In this document: positions 7,530 to 12,747 of the stretch, in pieces | How positions within the stretch are numbered: position 1 is the stretch's first letter | Layout: every line of letters begins with the position of its first letter | NCBI RefSeq assembly: GCF_009914755.1 | Contig: NC_060934.1 | Direction: 5' to 3' (one strand) | Source of the DNA: the human T2T-CHM13v2.0 reference genome, Homo sapiens | Length of the DNA: 64,000 nucleotides | Made by a program: the position numbers and the translations under genes | The notes under the pieces: generated by a model | Seen by the model: only the letters and a program-made list of their open reading frames with translations | What the model was told of the DNA's origin: nothing | Database searches by the model: none

Positions 7530-8341
7530 TCCAAGAGCTGCTGGATTTGGGAACTGGGTTGCTCTGCAGCCAGCTATGTTGCTGCATATCTTACCCAAGA
7601 GGCGTTTGTGGAGATCTGATCACTATTTGCAAAGGTGTGTGCCACAACTGAGAGCACAGGGACTCTCCATTACTTGGGAACATCAACCATGCTGCTGGGA
7701 CTGAAGGGAAAGTGCCTGCTTCCCTAAATCCTGTGACTCATATACATTAGAACCTGATCCTGGAAGACCAGCTTCTCCTGGTAATTCTGAGGCTGAGGCT
7801 GCTCATGATGACATTCCCAACCATTCTGCTGATGTCCTTGAAAGAGTCAGTAAAGAAAATAACCTTTCTGTTCCTCCTGCTGCTGCCTCTCTCCGTGCAC
7901 ACCATGAACACAGCACAAAGGGGAGGGCCTTGCATGCTGGCTTTCCCCCATCTCAGGCTTGTCCCTTTCAGAATACTGAGGAGGAGATGCAGAAGGATAA
8001 GGAAATAATGCTGATCTACATCGACAAGGGCCATTTTCTGTATCACCTGGATACTCCAAATCACAGCTTAGTTTCCTTTTAATCCATAAGGCTACAGTTA
8101 TTTGAGCCATCATGTTAATTGGGAGTCCCCTGTGTCTCCACGGAAGAGTGGCCAGCTCCACCCAGTAGAACTTCCTGGGTACAAGAAGTTCTGCTCAGGG
8201 TCATCATTGGGAGATTCCACCTGGTTTTCCTGGATTCTTGTAAATGGGTGGCCTTTGGCAGAGGAATCATGCAGTTCCCTGGCAGTGAACATTCTGTGTC
8301 TCTCTCTAAGTGGTGGTCTGGCTTTTATTTTGAAACCAGTT
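7530..8341 (-). pseudogene. CPHX-type homeobox pseudogene, last exon (homeodomain helix 3 NWFQNK plus Q-rich C-terminus)
   Basis: Acceptor tttctctttag|AAC TGG TTT CAA AAT AAA = NWFQNK. A 2-bp loss near 8322 gives TAG at 8306-8308; restoring it reads RARPPLRERHRMF. Downstream frames give ESQHARP, QQNGWECH..PQNY, DLGKQ, NGESLCSQL, PLG*DMQ and EQPSSQIQQL, all resembling human CPHXL as recalled. Multiple stops and frameshifts. Confidence 0.85.
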
Positions 8342-8785
8342 CTAAAGAGAAAGAACAGTTTGTTAATTCAATCTGTTGGTTAAGACATATTGTACAATGC
8401 ATTTCCACAATGTAGAATTTTACAGTTAAGTTTAGTCTCAGGATGATCACCGGCTTGTTTCCTGACTTGAATAAGACACAAAGAATGAAGGCAATCCTTT
8501 GTGGGGCTGCACATTATGGAGGTTATAAATTGTGCACAATCCCAAAATTTCAACTGCCTCATAGTTGCAGTGGCCCTTTTGTACATGCAAACCTGGACCT
8601 TTCAAAATCTCCTACCAACCTGTTTGCAATCCTCCGCATTTGGAAAGAACAGACTTCCAGCCTTTCCCTAACTTATTTATTTTACTCACGCTGACCTACC
8701 AGGATAAACTTGTGATTCAATATACTCTAAATTATACTCTTAAATTCACTGTATTCAAAGACTATGCATAAAACAAGCAAGAGTT

Positions 8786-11700
8786 GGCCGGGCACAGTGG
8801 CTCATGCCTGTAATCCCAGCTCTTTGGGAGGCTGAGGCAGGTGGATCACAAGGTTGGGAGTTCAAGACCAGCCTGGCCAACTGGTGAAACCCTGTCTTTA
8901 CTAAAAAAAAATACAAAAATTAGCTGGGCATAGTGGTGTGTGCCTGCAATCCTAGCTACTTGGGTGGCTGAGGGAGGAGAATTGCTTGAACCCAGGAGGG
9001 GGAGGTTGCAGTGAGATGAGATTGTGCCACTGCACTCTGGCATGGGTTACAGAGCAAGACTTTATCTAAAAAAAAAAAAAAAAAAAGGAACAAGCAAGAG
9101 TTTGTAATAACCTGGCAAGGCATCTTACACGTGACTCTAAGCATTCCATTTGACACCTCTAGTCTTCATTTTTTTCCCTCCTCCACAAAGAGAGGATAAT
9201 TACACATGCCAACCATAATCCCTAGGGGTTTAGGGGAGGGAGAAATGATCAACACTGTTTTAGACTCTCCATCCTAATAAGCTCTGTTGTGGTACCGCAC
9301 CTAGAGCCCTACCATGCAGGTAAGGATGTCTGGGGGCCTTTTAATATTTGATCCCTCCAGGAACCCCTCTGTCTGCAAGTTCAGAATTGCTTTAGGTTAA
9401 TAGCGCTTAAAGCTAGAAAGATGTCTGATCCACACCTATAATGACTGCTTAAAACAAAGTTGTGGGCCAGGCGCGGTGGCTCACCCCTGTGATCCTAGCA
9501 CTTTGGGAGGCTGAGGTGGGTGGATCACCTGACATCAGGAGTTCGAGACCAGCCTAGCCAGCATGGGGAAACCTCATCTCTACTAAAAATACAAAAATTA
9601 GCTGGGCATCATGGCGCATGCCTGTAATCTCAGCTACTCAGGAGGCTGAGGGAGGAGAATCCCTTGAATGCAGGGGGCAGAAGCTGCAGTGAGCTGAGAT
9701 TGTGCCACTACACTCCAGCCTGGGCAACAGAGTGAGACGCCATCTCAAAATAAATAAATAATAAACAAATAAATAAAATTGTGACCATGCACAATGAACC
9801 TGGCACCTCCAGATATACTCATTTTCTTCTCACAACACCATCACAACATAATTATACATATTTTACAAAAAGATAAGGTGCAAGAGTCAACTTGCACCTT
9901 ATAAGTCAACTTGCACCTCTATAAGTCAGATGTTATAGAGCCATTAGGAGGTAGATCTCATGAGGACCCAACCAAAAGACAAGACCTCACTCTCTCATGA
10001 CAGAGCCTCCTGTGGCCCTCCCCTCAAACATGCTTGCTTCCTGATCACATCATGGGCACTTTCTTTAAGCACATGCAGGCCAGTTCAATTCAGTGTAATT
10101 TGATTAGCCGTTATCTATGAACTTCCTTTTAGGAATCTATCCCTCTGACAAGTAGAAAGGATAAAACATAATTAAAAAGCACTTTTGACCATGAGCAACC
10201 CAACTGTCACAAAGTTAGAAATGTAAATAAATGAACAGTATAAGAACGTTCATTTAAATGTTTGACCAAGCCCAGGCGCAATGGCTCATGCTGTAATCCC
10301 AGCACTTTGGGAGGCTGAGGCAGGGGGATTGCTTGAACCCAGGAGTTTGAGCCCAGGCTAGGCCATATGGCAAAACCCCATCTCTACATTAAAAAAAAAA
10401 AAAAATTAACCAGGCATCATGTCCTGTGGTCCCAGCCACTCAGGAGGCTGAGGTGGGATCACTTAAGCCCAGGGAGTCGATGCTGCAGTCAACCACAATT
10501 GCGCCACTGAAATCCAGCCTGGGCAACGGAGTGAGACCCTGTCACTTAAAAAAAAAAAAAAAGAAATCGATCAGTCCTTCCATTTCTATCCTGGTTATTT
10601 ACTTTATTTGGATTTTCTACTTATTTGCAGGAAGGCATTTGTTTGTATTTCCCTTGAAATGTTCTCACTTCATGAAGCTTTTTTTTTTTTTTTTTTGTGA
10701 TGGAGTCTCCCTCTGTCACCCAGGCTGGAGTGCGGTGGCATCATCTCAGCTCACTGCAACCTCTGTCTCCAAGGTTCAAGCGATTCTCCTGCCTCAGCCT
10801 CCTGAATAGCTGGGATTACAGGTGTCTGCCACCACTCCCAGCTAATTTTTGTATTTTTGTAGAGATGGGTTTTTGCCATGTTGGCCAGGCTGGTCTTGAA
10901 CTCCTAACCTCAGGTGATCCACTCACCTCGGCCTCCCAAAGTGCTGGGATTACAGGCATGAGCCACCATGCCTGGCCTACTTCACAAAACTTTTATAAAA
11001 ATTTCATTACACAATATTTGCCTATACTTTTCCTTTATTCTCCAAAGTTGCTTATATTCTTTGTTTTCACTAACACAGTTTTGTCCTTCTGTCAAGCAAC
11101 CAATATATTCAATAGTCAAAGGATAATCACAGATGAGAAATATGAAAGTCTCCTTAAATGTGTATATATAATCTGTCAGGGGATTAGAGAATAGATTGTA
11201 TGTGTAAATAATATAAATTCAAATACAATAAGATGTTGTGCTTTAACAATTTACAATGATCATATCAGAAAATCACCAAACAAAATATTAGTTCGTGCAA
11301 TAAATGGTTATGAAGCAACTACTGATGCTGTGGGGTTCTGTGCCAAGTCCCGTGACACTATCAAGCCAAGTTCTTCCTCCTGCACTTCAGACTTGCATGC
11401 CTAACTTTTTACTTACTCCTTGGAGTAAGTAAACTCTTAGAGGTTTAATTGGCACACCAAACTTAACGTGTGCAAAGTAAAACTCCAAATGTCTGACACA
11501 AAAGTGCTCTTCTCCCAAGCTCCCCTGTTAGTTAAAGGCATCTCCAATCTTCCATGTCAAGCCAAAACTTTGGAGCTATCCTTACCTCTGGCATCCCCAA
11601 TAACTCAGCAAACTATAAGCCGCTCCACCTTTAAAAATTAAAGGTCTTCCCAGTTCTCTAATTCCACAGCCAGCACCCTTGTCAAAACCATCACTGTCTC

Positions 11701-12437
11701 TATCCTGGAAAATTACAATAATAGCTTTTTCTTTTTTTTGAAACAGAGTATCGCTCTGTCGTCCAGGCTGGAGTGCAGTGGCGTGATGTTGCCTCACTGC
11801 AACCTCCACCTCCTGAGTTTAAGAAATTCTCCTACCTCAGCCTCCTGAGTAACTGTGATTACAGGCGCGTGCCACCATGCCCGGCTAATTTTTATATTTT
11901 TGGTAGAGACAGGGTTTCACCATGTTGGCCAGGCTGGTCTTGAACTCCTGACCTCAGGTGATCCGCTCACCGCAGCCTCCCAAGGTGCTGGGATTATAGG
12001 CATGAGCCACCGCAGCCAGCCTACAGTAGCTTCTTAACACTGCTCCCAAATTTGCCTCACAATAGTCTATTTTCCATAAAATGCATATATAATATATTCA
12101 CACCCACATTGAGATGAACAACAACCAAAAAAAAAATCAAATTTTTTTTTTTTTTTTTTTTGAGAATCTCACTGTTGCCCAGGCTGGAGTGTAGTGGTGC
12201 CATCTTGGCCCTGTGCAACCTCTGCCTCTGAGGTTCAGGCAATGCTCCTGCCTCAGCCTCCCAAGTAGCTGGGACTACAGGCACGTGCCAACCTGCCTGG
12301 CTAATTTTTGTATTTTTGGTAGAGATGGGGTGTTGCCATGTTGGCCAGGCTGGTCTCGAACTCCTGGCCTCAAGTGATCTGCCCGCCTCAGCCTCCCTAA
12401 GTGCTGGGATTACAGGCATGAGCCACTGCGCCCAGCC
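8786..12437. mobile_element. Alu cluster in the homeobox intron (+: 8786-9086, 9465-9775, 10270-10565; -: 10679-10977, 11726-12021, 12142-12437) with an L2-like fragment at about 11340-11720
   Basis: Canonical Alu dimers with A/T tails. Confidence 0.85.
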
Positions 12438-12556
12438 TAAAAAAATCACTTTGTGCTATGTGATAAAATGCTATTAAACTTTTTCATGCTTCTTTACATT
12501 TTCCACATTATCTATAAAAAGACATACCCATGCAAAGCTTTTAATATTTTACTTAC

Positions 12557-12747
12557 ATCAATTACAAACACAGGACAAGAGACTGTCCAGCCAGTTTTTC
12601 CCTGGTTGTAAAATTAGGATAAGGATTCTGTGCAAATGACTGCTGAAGTACACTCAGCTTATCCTTGGTAAATTTAAGCCACGGTTTTACACTTCCTCTT
12701 CCCCATCTTCTTGTTCTTACTTCATTATGACTGGTTAATGGGAGATC
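12557..12747 (-). pseudogene. CPHX-type homeobox pseudogene, exon encoding homeodomain residues 1-46
   Basis: Acceptor tttttcag|GAT at 12747. Translation HNEVRTRRWGRGSVKPWLKFTKDKLSVLQQSFAQNPYPNFTTREKLAGQ, then a 1-bp loss near 12582; shifted frame SCPVFVID|gtaagt (donor 12551-12556). F8, L13, L16, F20, Y25, P26, R31, L34, A35 and I45 are correctly spaced. Confidence 0.9.

What the first reader, a model, noticed from the sequence alone, without database searches (positions are those of the whole stretch)
7530..12747. Hidden intron-containing CPHX-type PRD-class homeobox gene, inactivated by two tiny deletions
Seen: splicing 12747-12557 to 8341 through a canonical GT-AG intron of 4215 nt, and repairing a 1-bp and a 2-bp deletion, rebuilds a complete homeodomain: SVKPWLKFTKDKLSVLQQSFAQNPYPNFTTREKLAGQxSCPVFVID|NWFQNKRARPPLRE. 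Established: a phase-0 intron between residues 46 and 47 is typical of PRD-class genes, and the CPV.VID|NWFQNKRAR signature and C-terminal motifs match CPHXL as I recall it. In mouse, Cphx sits beside Tmem254, Plac9 and Duxbl. Inference: this is the unprocessed pseudogene orthologous to rodent Cphx, an oocyte/early-embryo homeobox gene lost in this lineage. No single ORF in the track reveals it. Remnants at this syntenic site may already be noted in the homeobox-evolution literature.
Basis: partly seen in the sequence, partly recalled or inferred. Interest (0 to 1): 0.9.

Follow-up and report, generated by a model that had tools for sequence, protein, structure and literature searches.

The report
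Dead CPHX homeobox gene inside TMEM254-AS1
The last three exons of the human non-coding RNA gene TMEM254-AS1 are the decayed remains of a CPHX-type early-embryo homeobox gene, the counterpart of mouse Cphx1, and this relic at 10q22.3 was already described in the homeobox literature.

Summary
On the minus strand, 12747..12557 joined to 8341 through a GT-AG intron of 4215 nt encodes a homeodomain. It is interrupted by a 1-base gap near 12587 and a 2-base gap near 8323.

It is a CPHX-family gene, not a DUX gene. Similarity to the intact human chr16 CPHXL/CPHXL2 genes and to CPHXL proteins of other mammals runs collinearly from the N-terminal arm to the shared stop codon.

A first coding exon (15309..15099, ATG at 15216) also belongs to it, and its three exons coincide with the last three exons of TMEM254-AS1.

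There are about six frame-breaking indels, four in-frame stops and a frame break before the homeodomain.

A processed retrocopy on chr4 shows that both introns were spliced in the germline. It shares the helix-3 2-base gap, so inactivation is probably old.

Position next to TMEM254 and DUXBLP, and a family tree, fit orthology with rodent Cphx1.

Leidenroth and Hewitt (2010) and Zhong and Holland (2011) already reported Cphx-like pseudogenes at 10q22.3. The finding is correct but known, and interest is low.

The parts
15099..15309 (-). Exon 1 of the pseudogene, identical to an annotated TMEM254-AS1 exon. From the ATG at 15216-15214 it encodes MASIPGPGEQPETRRVAQEGTGSQCYTVACQSQSQDLIT plus one base. 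The donor ACTG|gtaggc is in phase 1.
   Evidence: translation. The N-terminus is homologous to that of cheetah CPHXL2 P0025 in alignment A1. The same phase-1 donor is seen in the chr16 gene's first exon. The last ~45-60 bases of this exon lie directly upstream of exon 2 in the chr4 retrocopy.
12748..15098 (-). Intron 1 (GT...AG).
   Evidence: Sequence; absent from the chr4 retrocopy.
12557..12747 (-). Exon 2: N-terminal arm and homeodomain residues 1-46 (helices 1 and 2). It holds a frame break between the exon-1 frame and the homeodomain frame, and a 1-base gap at about 12587/12586.
   Evidence: Pfam PF00046 E 2.3e-5. tblastn with sloth CPHXL gives 53% identity, E 1.4e-13. Alignments.
8342..12556 (-). 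Intron 2: 4215 nt, gtaagt...ctttag, phase 0, between homeodomain residues 46 and 47.
   Evidence: It is exactly missing from the chr4 retrocopy, where window 12572 is followed within 12 bases by window 8341. The chr16 genes have an intron at the same position.
7469..8341 (-). Coding-equivalent part of exon 3: helix 3 (NWFQNK, then a 2-base gap at about 8326-8321), then a C-terminal region collinear with CPHXL/CPHXL2 down to a stop at 7471-7469 that aligns with the chr16A stop. Further frame-breaking indels lie near 8187, 7733, 7681 and 7576. In-frame stops lie near 8117, 7849, 7685 and 7593.
5397..7468 (-). 3' untranslated part of the last exon as annotated for TMEM254-AS1. An AATAAA lies at 5821-5816. 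The retrocopy's similarity ends about 25 bases after it, at an A-rich remnant.

Best explanation
This is a transcribed, unprocessed (intron-containing) pseudogene of the CPHX family of PRD-like homeobox genes. It is the human remnant of the copy that lies between TMEM254 and DUXBL, the position held by Cphx1 in mouse.

The ancestral gene had three coding exons. Exon 1 held the ATG and a short N-terminus. Exon 2 held the N-terminal arm and homeodomain residues 1-46. Exon 3 held helix 3 and a glutamine-rich C-terminal region.

All four splice sites and a polyadenylation signal survive, so the locus is still transcribed and spliced. RefSeq records these exons as the last three of the lncRNA TMEM254-AS1, whose first exon overlaps the first exon of TMEM254 head to head.

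No homeodomain protein can be made. The frame from the ancestral ATG stops at TAA after 46 codons in exon 2. The homeodomain frame is broken by a 1-base gap before helix 3 and a 2-base gap inside helix 3. The C-terminal region has four more frame breaks and four stops.

Shown: the homology, the exon structure, the lesions, and past germline splicing (from the chr4 retrocopy).

Inferred: that the helix-3 gap was the early inactivating lesion because the retrocopy shares it; that the locus is the orthologue of rodent Cphx1; and that the RNA has no function of its own.
For: 1. Family.
- The best genome-wide paralogue of the homeodomain exon is chr16:81717676-81717879 (E 4e-5), ahead of all DUX copies (146 matches at E<=10, DUX4 arrays near E 1).
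- The last exon matches the chr16 genes' last exons at 66-67% nucleotide identity and by tblastn at E 2e-13.
- The codon-aligned conceptual translation is 127/324 and 132/339 identical to the two chr16 proteins.
- The chr16B last exon is 92% identical to orangutan 'cytoplasmic polyadenylated homeobox-like protein'.
- A profile of 14 CPHXL proteins scores the window's translation at 332 bits over profile positions 12-348 of 358. Mouse Cphx1 scores 116 bits and the DUX4 homeodomains 32 and 24 bits.
- Homeodomain identity is 24/58 to 37/58 with 33 CPHX-family proteins plus the chr4 retrocopy (34/55), including mouse Cphx1 30/58 and rat 32/58. One mis-registered manatee model scores 6/58. DUX4 HD1 scores 19/58 and HD2 17/58.

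2. Structure.
- The splice sites coincide with annotated TMEM254-AS1 exons (hub table).
- The intron positions and phases are the same as in the chr16 genes.

3. Retrocopy.
- chr4:10157689-10159898 joins window 12709-12572 directly to 8341-5794 at 72-84% identity, and also carries the end of exon 1.

4. Lesions.
- The 2-base helix-3 gap is shared by the window and the retrocopy. The 1-base gap is in the window only.
- Window-only substitutions since the split fall 16/22/10 on codon positions 1/2/3, so there is no sign of coding constraint.

5. Synteny.
- A DUXBL-type homeodomain exon lies at window -23044..-22892, and a second CPHX-like exon at -41985..-41809.
- The chr16 genes flank a double-homeobox gene in the same way.
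- The mouse order is Tmem254-Cphx1-Duxbl (PMC4584094, passages).

6. Tree of 41 rows.
- Window plus retrocopy form a pair (SH-aLRT 100) outside the chr16-type clade of 14 rows (100).
- They lie on the side of a 99-supported split that holds murid Cphx1.
- AU tests give p 0.011 and 0.357.
Against: - The tree leaves the window in a polytomy. It comes from a quick search with SH-aLRT support only, and both AU groups were named after the tree was seen. Orthology with rodent Cphx1 therefore rests mainly on synteny taken from papers.
- The conceptual translation was framed by aligning it to chr16A, which inflates profile scores and identities somewhat.
- The shared 2-base gap lies in an A/G-rich run. 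By my rough estimate it could be a coincidence with a chance of 10-15%. The window and retrocopy also both carry indels of different size at two other sites.
- Wilming et al. 2015 (PMC4584094, passages) argued that the chr10 loci listed as CPHX-related in HomeoDB are DUX pseudogenes and that humans have no CPHX gene.
- The window has accumulated fewer changes than the retrocopy: 48 against 71 substitutions (p 0.043), and about a third as many indels. This leaves room for some constraint on the RNA.
- No other primate genome could be examined here.
Confidence: 0.9

Rival explanations
1. It is a remnant of the double-homeobox gene DUXBL, or a duplicate of it, not of a CPHX gene. This is how Wilming et al. 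2015 read the chr10 loci.
For: PMC4584094 (passages) states that the chr10 loci are more similar to Duxbl than to Cphx. The homeodomain exon also gives a weak hit to DUX4 HD1 (43% over 30 residues, E 8e-5).
Against: A separate, much better DUXBL-type exon exists 35 kb away (61% identical to DUX4 HD1, E 4e-17). The window's homeodomain is 19/58 and 17/58 identical to the DUX4 homeodomains, against 24-37/58 to CPHX proteins. There is one homeobox, not two. About 290 codons after the homeodomain align collinearly with CPHXL proteins. The CPHXL profile finds mouse Cphx1 at E 8.5e-28 and lists no protein named DUX among its 49 hits.
Confidence: 0.03
2. It is a decayed duplicate of the chr16 CPHXL/CPHXL2 lineage: a paralogue that moved or was copied to chr10, not the orthologue of rodent Cphx1.
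For: The two regions are paralogous segments with the same gene order (PMC3141429, passages). The neighbouring second chr10 relic is slightly closer to the chr16 genes (64%) than to the window (60%).
Against: The window is less similar to the human chr16 proteins (summed 78-124 bits) than to sloth, colugo, anteater or aardvark proteins (189-238 bits). The tree puts it outside the chr16-type clade, and forcing it inside costs 28 log-likelihood units (AU p 0.011).
Confidence: 0.06
3. It is a retained functional non-coding RNA gene. After losing its reading frame, the locus was kept for its transcript, for example as the antisense partner of TMEM254.
For: All four splice sites, the polyadenylation signal and transcription survive although the frame was probably lost before the retrocopy arose (K2P 0.22 between the two). 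The window has fewer substitutions (48 against 71, p 0.043) and far fewer indels than the retrocopy.
Against: A rate difference of this size can come from regional mutation rate or from transcription-coupled repair. There was no outgroup for the untranslated part, and no expression or conservation data were available here.
Confidence: 0.1

Closest known systems
Human CPHXL and CPHXL2 (formerly CPHX1/CPHX2), 16q23.1; here chr16:81762516-81774731 and chr16:81708300-81717840 in the T2T assembly
   Same: Same three-exon layout with a phase-1 first intron and a 46/47 homeobox intron. Same homeodomain signature (cysteine before helix 3, V-x-V-I-D/N | NWFQN-K/N-RARLPP-x-ER-x-RIF). C-terminal motifs are collinear down to the stop. 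The genes flank a double-homeobox gene.
   Different: The chr16 genes are intact, and the window copy is broken in at least ten places. The chr16 genes carry an internal repeat expansion of about 100-160 nt that is absent from the window, from the retrocopy and from non-primate proteins. Homeodomain identity is only 29/58, and the tree places them in a different clade.
Mouse Cphx1 (P0051, 182 aa) and rat Cphx1 (P0053)
   Same: Same family: the CPHXL profile finds them at E 8.5e-28 and 1.5e-27. Homeodomain identity is 30/58 and 32/58. Same place in the gene order next to Tmem254 and Duxbl (PMC4584094 and PMC3141429, passages). A common clade is not rejected.
   Different: The rodent proteins are short and lack most of the C-terminal region (profile match ends at position 125 of 358). 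They are intact, and the mouse gene is triplicated (papers).
The 'Cphx-like loci at 10q22.3' of Zhong and Holland 2011, and the 'Human Cphx 10q processed transcript' of Leidenroth and Hewitt 2010
   Same: Almost certainly the same object. Those papers describe two truncated Cphx-like loci flanking the DUXBL pseudogene with frameshifts in helix 3, classed as pseudogenes (PMC3141429), and a Cphx homologue next to the human DUXBL pseudogene used as a marker of the DUXB/Duxbl duplication (PMC3004920).
   Different: The passages I read give no coordinates, exon 1, full lesion list or chr4 retrocopy. That the Ensembl identifier in PMC3004920 is today's TMEM254-AS1 is my recollection, not a tool result.
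DUXBL pseudogene (DUXBLP), 10q22.3
   Same: It is a neighbour in the same ancient cassette. It is also a PRD-type homeobox with a 46/47 intron and is also dead in apes (PMC3004920).
   Different: It is a different family with a different signature (PYPGI...G-I-P-E-P-R-I-Q). It lies at window -23044..-22892, outside the window.

Membership tests
Homeodomain (Pfam PF00046) | Score above the curated cut-off of the Pfam profile | tested here: met
   the unrepaired 75-aa frame of exon 2 scores 24.6 bits against a cut-off of 22.9 (E 2.3e-5), covering profile positions 6-36 of 57. The rest of the domain lies behind the frame break and the intron and was not scored against Pfam. Its W-F-Q-N motif is read directly.
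PRD-class / PRD-like homeobox genes | Intron between homeodomain residues 46 and 47. That this is typical of the class is established knowledge recalled here, not tested. | tested here: met
   ...VID|gtaagt ... ctttag|NWFQNK. The position is the same in both chr16 genes and in the DUXA, DUXB and DUXBLP exons found.
CPHX family (Cphx1 / CPHXL / CPHXL2) | Family-specific homeodomain signature: cysteine at about position 39-40 and V-I-D/N | NWFQNKRARLPP | tested here: met
   the signature is present in the window (SCPVFVID|NWFQN.KARPPLRE). It is also in all 12 other family rows printed (11 proteins and the chr4 retrocopy), and absent from the 7 DUX homeodomain exons printed.
CPHX family (Cphx1 / CPHXL / CPHXL2) | Collinear similarity outside the homeodomain (N-terminal exon and C-terminal region) | tested here: met
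   The profile match covers positions 12-348 of 358 at 332 bits. The frames were chosen by alignment, so this is an upper estimate. Of 25 database proteins, 24 hit the window by tblastn, most in three to five collinear pieces.
CPHX family (Cphx1 / CPHXL / CPHXL2) | Gene structure: three coding exons, phase-1 first intron, phase-0 homeobox intron | tested here: met
   for chr16, for the window. The retrocopy confirms both junctions.
Orthologue of rodent Cphx1 | Same position in the conserved gene order, and monophyly with rodent Cphx1 to the exclusion of the chr16-type paralogues | tested here: inconclusive
   Position: TMEM254, the window gene, then DUXBLP (hub table), against the mouse order taken from papers. 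Tree: the window falls outside the chr16-type clade (AU p 0.011), and a common clade with murid Cphx1 is not rejected (p 0.357) but is also not recovered with support.
DUX (double homeobox) family | Two homeoboxes in tandem, and the DUX homeodomain signature | tested here: not met
   The gene has one homeobox only. Identity to the DUX4 homeodomains is 19/58 and 17/58. DUX4 scores 32 and 24 bits on the CPHXL profile, against 332 for the window.
Unprocessed pseudogene | Introns retained at ancestral positions, plus disabling lesions | tested here: met
   Two introns with GT-AG. Relative to the chr16 genes there are six frame-breaking indels and four in-frame stops. The ATG frame ends at TAA after 46 codons.

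The most novel reading that the evidence does not exclude
The gene lost its reading frame before the chr4 retrocopy was made; my uncalibrated estimate puts that in early primate times. Even so, it has kept its promoter link to TMEM254, all four ancestral splice sites and its polyadenylation signal. It has also changed more slowly than its retrocopy. It may therefore have been retained as a functional antisense or early-embryo RNA, not as a mere relic.
Probability: 0.1. Interest if true: 0.45.

Novelty: already known. Interest (0 to 1): 0.2.

Why it matters
It settles a small disagreement in the homeobox literature. Wilming et al. 2015 proposed that the chr10 loci are DUX pseudogenes and that Cphx is a rodent invention. 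The sequence here shows that the TMEM254-adjacent locus is a CPHX gene along its whole length, and that the family is present across placental orders.

It also explains what the lncRNA TMEM254-AS1 is: a transcribed homeobox pseudogene. This is useful for anyone interpreting its expression in oocytes, embryos or tumours.

The chr4 retrocopy gives an internal time stamp for the loss. None of this changes current understanding of early-embryo homeobox genes.

Tried and rejected
- Protein search with the homeodomain exon for longer proteins found nothing (10 candidates, none scored). The word index was too coarse for this diverged piece. The search succeeded only from the intact chr16 exon and from an alignment.
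- Pfam on the 76-aa frame after helix 3 (window:8113-8340:-) gave no family.
- A helix-3 pattern scan of the chr10 and chr16 stretches found only the window and one chr16 gene. It missed DUXB and chr16A. DUX exons were then found with DUX4 homeodomains taken from the genome.
- Sensitive blastn of the regions upstream of the retrocopy and of chr16A against window 12700-40000 was swamped by interspersed repeats and gave no usable exon match. Exon 1 was found instead from the annotated exon and protein alignment A1.
- A possible helix-3 remnant of the second chr10 relic (WYQSPRAR at chr10:80864533-80864577) was rejected. No family protein aligns there.
- The apparent 100+ nt deletion near 8097 was considered as a lesion and rejected. 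It is an expansion in anthropoid chr16 genes.
- No other mammalian genome could be searched, so the lesions could not be dated by species.

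
Full report
**Observation**

On the minus strand, the exon that RefSeq lists as 12557-12747 of TMEM254-AS1 reads DLPLTSHNEVRTRRWGRGSVKPWLKFTKDKLSVLQQSFAQNPYPNFTTREKLAGQ. It then continues, one base out of frame, as (V)SCPVFVID, followed by a gtaagt donor. The next annotated exon starts at 8341 after ctttag and reads NWFQNK. Two bases out of frame it continues ARPPLRERHRMFTAREL....

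The intron 8342-12556 is 4215 nt long and lies between homeodomain residues 46 and 47. Pfam recognises the unrepaired exon-2 frame as a homeodomain above the curated cut-off (24.6 against 22.9 bits, E 2.3e-5, profile positions 6-36 of 57). The 76-residue frame after helix 3 has no Pfam family.

**What it is related to**

The window's own genome could be searched.

- The homeodomain exon's best match outside itself is chr16:81717676-81717879 (E 4e-5, 42% identity). A second chr16 copy lies at 81766588-81766788, and a weaker chr10 match 42 kb outside the window. The many DUX4 array copies score near E 1. In all there were 146 matches at E<=10.
- The last exon (window 7300-8400) matches the stretches downstream of the two chr16 homeobox exons at 66-67% nucleotide identity. 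It matches a stretch on chr4 at 79% (five matches including itself).
- Both chr16 genes are intact. Each has a homeobox exon ending ...CPVNVI(N/D)|gtaagt and a last exon starting NWFQN(N/K)RARLPP..., open for 331 and 332 codons.
- The protein database names the closest relatives of the chr16B exon 'cytoplasmic polyadenylated homeobox-like protein' (orangutan, 92%). It names those of the chr16A type '...like protein 2' (25 hits). These are therefore CPHXL and CPHXL2.
- Between them lie two DUX-type homeobox exons (chr16:81748301-81748435 and 81744246-81744386). This is the arrangement that Zhong and Holland 2011 describe for CPHX1, DUXB and CPHX2 (PMC3141429, passages).

**Collinearity**

I made a four-way MAFFT alignment of the spliced window exons, the chr4 copy and the two chr16 coding sequences. 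Homology runs from the N-terminal arm to the end, and the window's stop at 7471-7469 aligns with the chr16A stop.

Read codon by codon in the chr16 frame, the window is 127/324 and 132/339 identical to the two chr16 proteins.

By tblastn, 24 of 25 database proteins hit window 5000-13000, most in three to five collinear pieces. The strongest are not the human-type proteins (summed 78-124 bits). They are sloth (238 bits; homeodomain exon 53%, E 1.4e-13; remaining pieces E 7.5e-30), colugo (228), anteater (201) and aardvark (189).

An HMM built from 14 CPHXL proteins (alignment A1) scores the window's conceptual translation at 332 bits over profile positions 12-348 of 358. It scores mouse Cphx1 at 116 bits and the two DUX4 homeodomains at 32 and 24 bits. 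The frames of the conceptual translation were chosen by alignment to chr16A, so that score is an upper estimate.

**CPHX or DUX**

Wilming et al. 2015 proposed that the chr10 loci listed as CPHX-related are DUX pseudogenes, that Cphx arose in rodents from Duxbl, and that humans have no CPHX gene (PMC4584094, passages). Four results contradict this for the window locus.

- Its homeodomain is 24/58 to 37/58 identical to 33 CPHX-family proteins and 34/55 to the chr4 retrocopy. This includes beaver 37/58, rat Cphx1 32/58, mouse Cphx1 30/58 and human chr16 29/58. One manatee model scored 6/58 because an insertion puts it out of register. Identity to the DUX4 homeodomains is 19/58 and 17/58.
- It carries the family signature: a cysteine before helix 3 and V-I-D|NWFQNKRARLPP. 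The seven DUX exons printed lack it.
- About 290 codons outside the homeodomain are CPHX-like.
- A genuine DUXBL-type exon lies elsewhere, at chr10:80886956-80887108 (window -23044..-22892). It is 61% identical to DUX4 HD1, E 4e-17.

The CPHXL profile also retrieves mouse and rat Cphx1 at E 8.5e-28 and 1.5e-27. The next, non-family homeodomain proteins score only 3.9e-10 and 3.6e-7. Family members come from Xenarthra, Afrotheria, Laurasiatheria, Glires and primates (49 hits). The family is therefore not a rodent invention.

**Full gene structure**

The annotated TMEM254-AS1 exon 15099-15309 contains an ATG at 15216. From it the exon reads MASIPGPGEQPETRRVAQEGTGSQCYTVACQSQSQDLIT plus one base, before a gtaggc donor. 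This is homologous to the N-terminus of cheetah CPHXL2 in A1. The phase-1 donor is the same as in the chr16 gene's first exon, found at chr16:81774731.

The pseudogene therefore has three exons, and they are exactly the last three exons of NR_027428.1 (hub table). The lncRNA's first exon (37886-38352, minus strand) overlaps the first exon of TMEM254 (37824-37945, plus strand). Transcription today appears to start at the shared TMEM254 promoter region. This is an inference from the annotation only.

**Lesions**

Relative to both chr16 genes, the window has six frame-breaking indels:

- -1 at about 12587;
- -2 at about 8326-8321, in helix 3;
- -2 at about 8187;
- -1 at about 7733;
- -1 at about 7681;
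- +5 at about 7576.

It has four in-frame stops, at about 8117, 7849, 7685 and 7593.

In addition, the exon-1 frame runs into TAA TGA seven codons into exon 2 (GSPINQS**). The N-terminal arm is 5 nt shorter than in the sloth-type proteins, so the homeodomain is not in frame with the ATG.

The large gap near 8097 is not a lesion. Non-primate CPHXL proteins lack that segment too, so it is a repeat expansion in anthropoid chr16 genes.

'Two tiny deletions' is thus true of the homeodomain but not of the gene.

**The chr4 retrocopy**

chr4:10157689-10159898 (minus strand) aligns to window 12709-12572 and then, within 12 bases, to 8341-7155, 6841-5942 and 5876-5794. Identities are 72%, 79%, 74% and 84%. 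Upstream it continues for about 45-60 bases into the end of exon 1. Its similarity ends about 25 bases after the AATAAA at window 5821-5816, at an A-rich remnant.

It is a 5'-truncated processed pseudogene of this very gene. In exon 2 it is 72% identical to the window, against 58% to the second chr10 relic and 60% to the chr16 genes.

It carries the base that the window lacks at 12587, but it shares the 2-base gap in helix 3. The simplest reading is that the helix-3 frameshift was already present when the mRNA was copied. I estimate a 10-15% chance that two independent 2-base losses hit the same A/G-rich run.

Consistent with early loss, substitutions private to the window fall 16, 22 and 10 on codon positions 1, 2 and 3. 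That shows no coding constraint.

The K2P distance between window and retrocopy is 0.222 over 1068 columns. By recalled primate neutral rates this is tens of millions of years, roughly early primate. I did not calibrate it.

The window has fewer private substitutions than the retrocopy (48 against 71, binomial p 0.043) and about a third as many indels. Regional mutation rate or transcription-coupled repair could explain this. So could weak constraint on the RNA.

**Orthology**

The order on chr10 is: second CPHX-like relic (window -41985..-41809), DUXBL-type exon (-23044..-22892), the C1D pseudogenes, the window gene, then TMEM254, PLAC9 and ANXA11 (hub table). Mouse has (Anxa11)-(Plac9)-Tmem254-(Eef1g)-Cphx1-Duxbl (PMC4584094).

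I built a tree of 41 rows: 37 of the 55 database proteins, both chr16 genes, the window and the retrocopy. The 18 proteins left out were fragments, near-duplicates, unnamed entries or the two non-family hits. The method was a quick IQ-TREE search on 364 columns.

- The window and the retrocopy pair together (SH-aLRT 100).
- They fall outside a clade of 14 chr16-type sequences: anthropoids, lemurs, loris, colugo and squirrel (100).
- They lie on the side of a 99-supported split that also holds tree shrew, a second mouse-lemur gene, Laurasiatheria, rabbit, porcupine, beaver and murid Cphx1.
- Forcing the pair into the chr16-type clade is rejected (delta lnL 28.2, AU p 0.011).
- Holding it with the Euarchontoglires members of the other side, including Cphx1, is not rejected (delta lnL 2.1, p 0.357).

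Both groups were named after seeing the tree, and several rodent and rabbit branches are long. Orthology with Cphx1 is well supported by position and compatible with the tree, but it is not proven.

**What is known**

- Leidenroth and Hewitt 2010 used a 'Human Cphx 10q processed transcript' next to the human DUXBL pseudogene as a marker of the DUXB/Duxbl segmental duplication (PMC3004920, passages).
- Zhong and Holland 2011 reported four human Cphx-related loci. [quoted passage not shown] They also noted that MGI had named LOC219347 on chr10 as the putative human CPHX (PMC3141429, passages).
- A 2026 paper on DUX evolution places CPHXL beside DUXBL in mouse and sloth and beside DUXB in human. 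In the passages I read it does not mention the human chr10 relic (PMC13558733).
- Searches for TMEM254-AS1 with homeobox (0 papers), CPHXL with TMEM254 (1 paper) and CPHX with retrocopy terms (of the 10 papers listed out of 367 matching, only PMC3004920 contained CPHX, and there in the DUX context) found no description of the lncRNA as this pseudogene or of the chr4 retrocopy. The library does not hold everything, and I saw no figures or supplements.

**Verdict**

The additions here are: exact coordinates; the first exon; the identity of the pseudogene with the last three exons of TMEM254-AS1; the full lesion list; the chr4 retrocopy as evidence of splicing and of early loss; and a clear answer to the CPHX-or-DUX question.

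Noticed in passing
G000:C4:10157689-10159925 (locus L031), minus strand: A 5'-truncated processed pseudogene of the window gene. It is intronless across both junctions, 72-84% identical, and ends after the AATAAA equivalent at an A-rich remnant. It has about 18 private indels and three stops. The passages read from Zhong and Holland 2011 count only four loci, on chr10 and chr16, and do not mention it.
   Followed up: yes
window -41985..-41809 (chr10:80868015-80868191, locus L026), minus strand: A second CPHX-like homeobox exon (...KTKHKDKFPEEELCRLNEKYAQHPYPNFTTRELVKQLHCHVCV) with an in-frame stop in the N-terminal arm. No matching last exon was found within 13 kb downstream. It is slightly closer to the chr16 genes (62-64%) than to the window (60%). 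The chr10 segment may therefore once have held both paralogue types, as chr16 does.
   Followed up: partly
window -23044..-22892 (chr10:80886956-80887108, locus L028), minus strand: A DUXBL-type first homeodomain exon (61% identical to DUX4 HD1, E 4e-17), lying between the two CPHX-like relics. This is presumably the DUXBL pseudogene of Leidenroth and Hewitt 2010.
   Followed up: partly
window 6842-7154: About 313 bases in the untranslated part of the last exon have no counterpart in the chr4 retrocopy, where the flanks are contiguous. This is probably a repeat inserted after the retrocopy was made. The repeat was not identified.
   Followed up: no
loci L019 and L024 (chr16 last exons); alignment A1 columns about 200-250: Anthropoid CPHXL/CPHXL2 carry a tandemly repeated segment of the LEKxGIPSQQVGS type. 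Copy number differs between the two human genes and among apes. The segment is absent from non-primate proteins and from the window.
   Followed up: no
window 5794-15309 compared with chr4 locus L031: The transcribed chr10 pseudogene has fewer private substitutions (48 against 71, p 0.043) and about a third as many indels as its retrocopy. The reason is unexplained: regional mutation rate, transcription-coupled repair, or constraint on the RNA.
   Followed up: partly
protein P0039 (mouse lemur, 306 aa): Two separate stretches of this model (residues 44-96 and 164-212) match a CPHX homeodomain exon. This suggests a gene model that fuses two tandem CPHX-type genes in mouse lemur.
   Followed up: no
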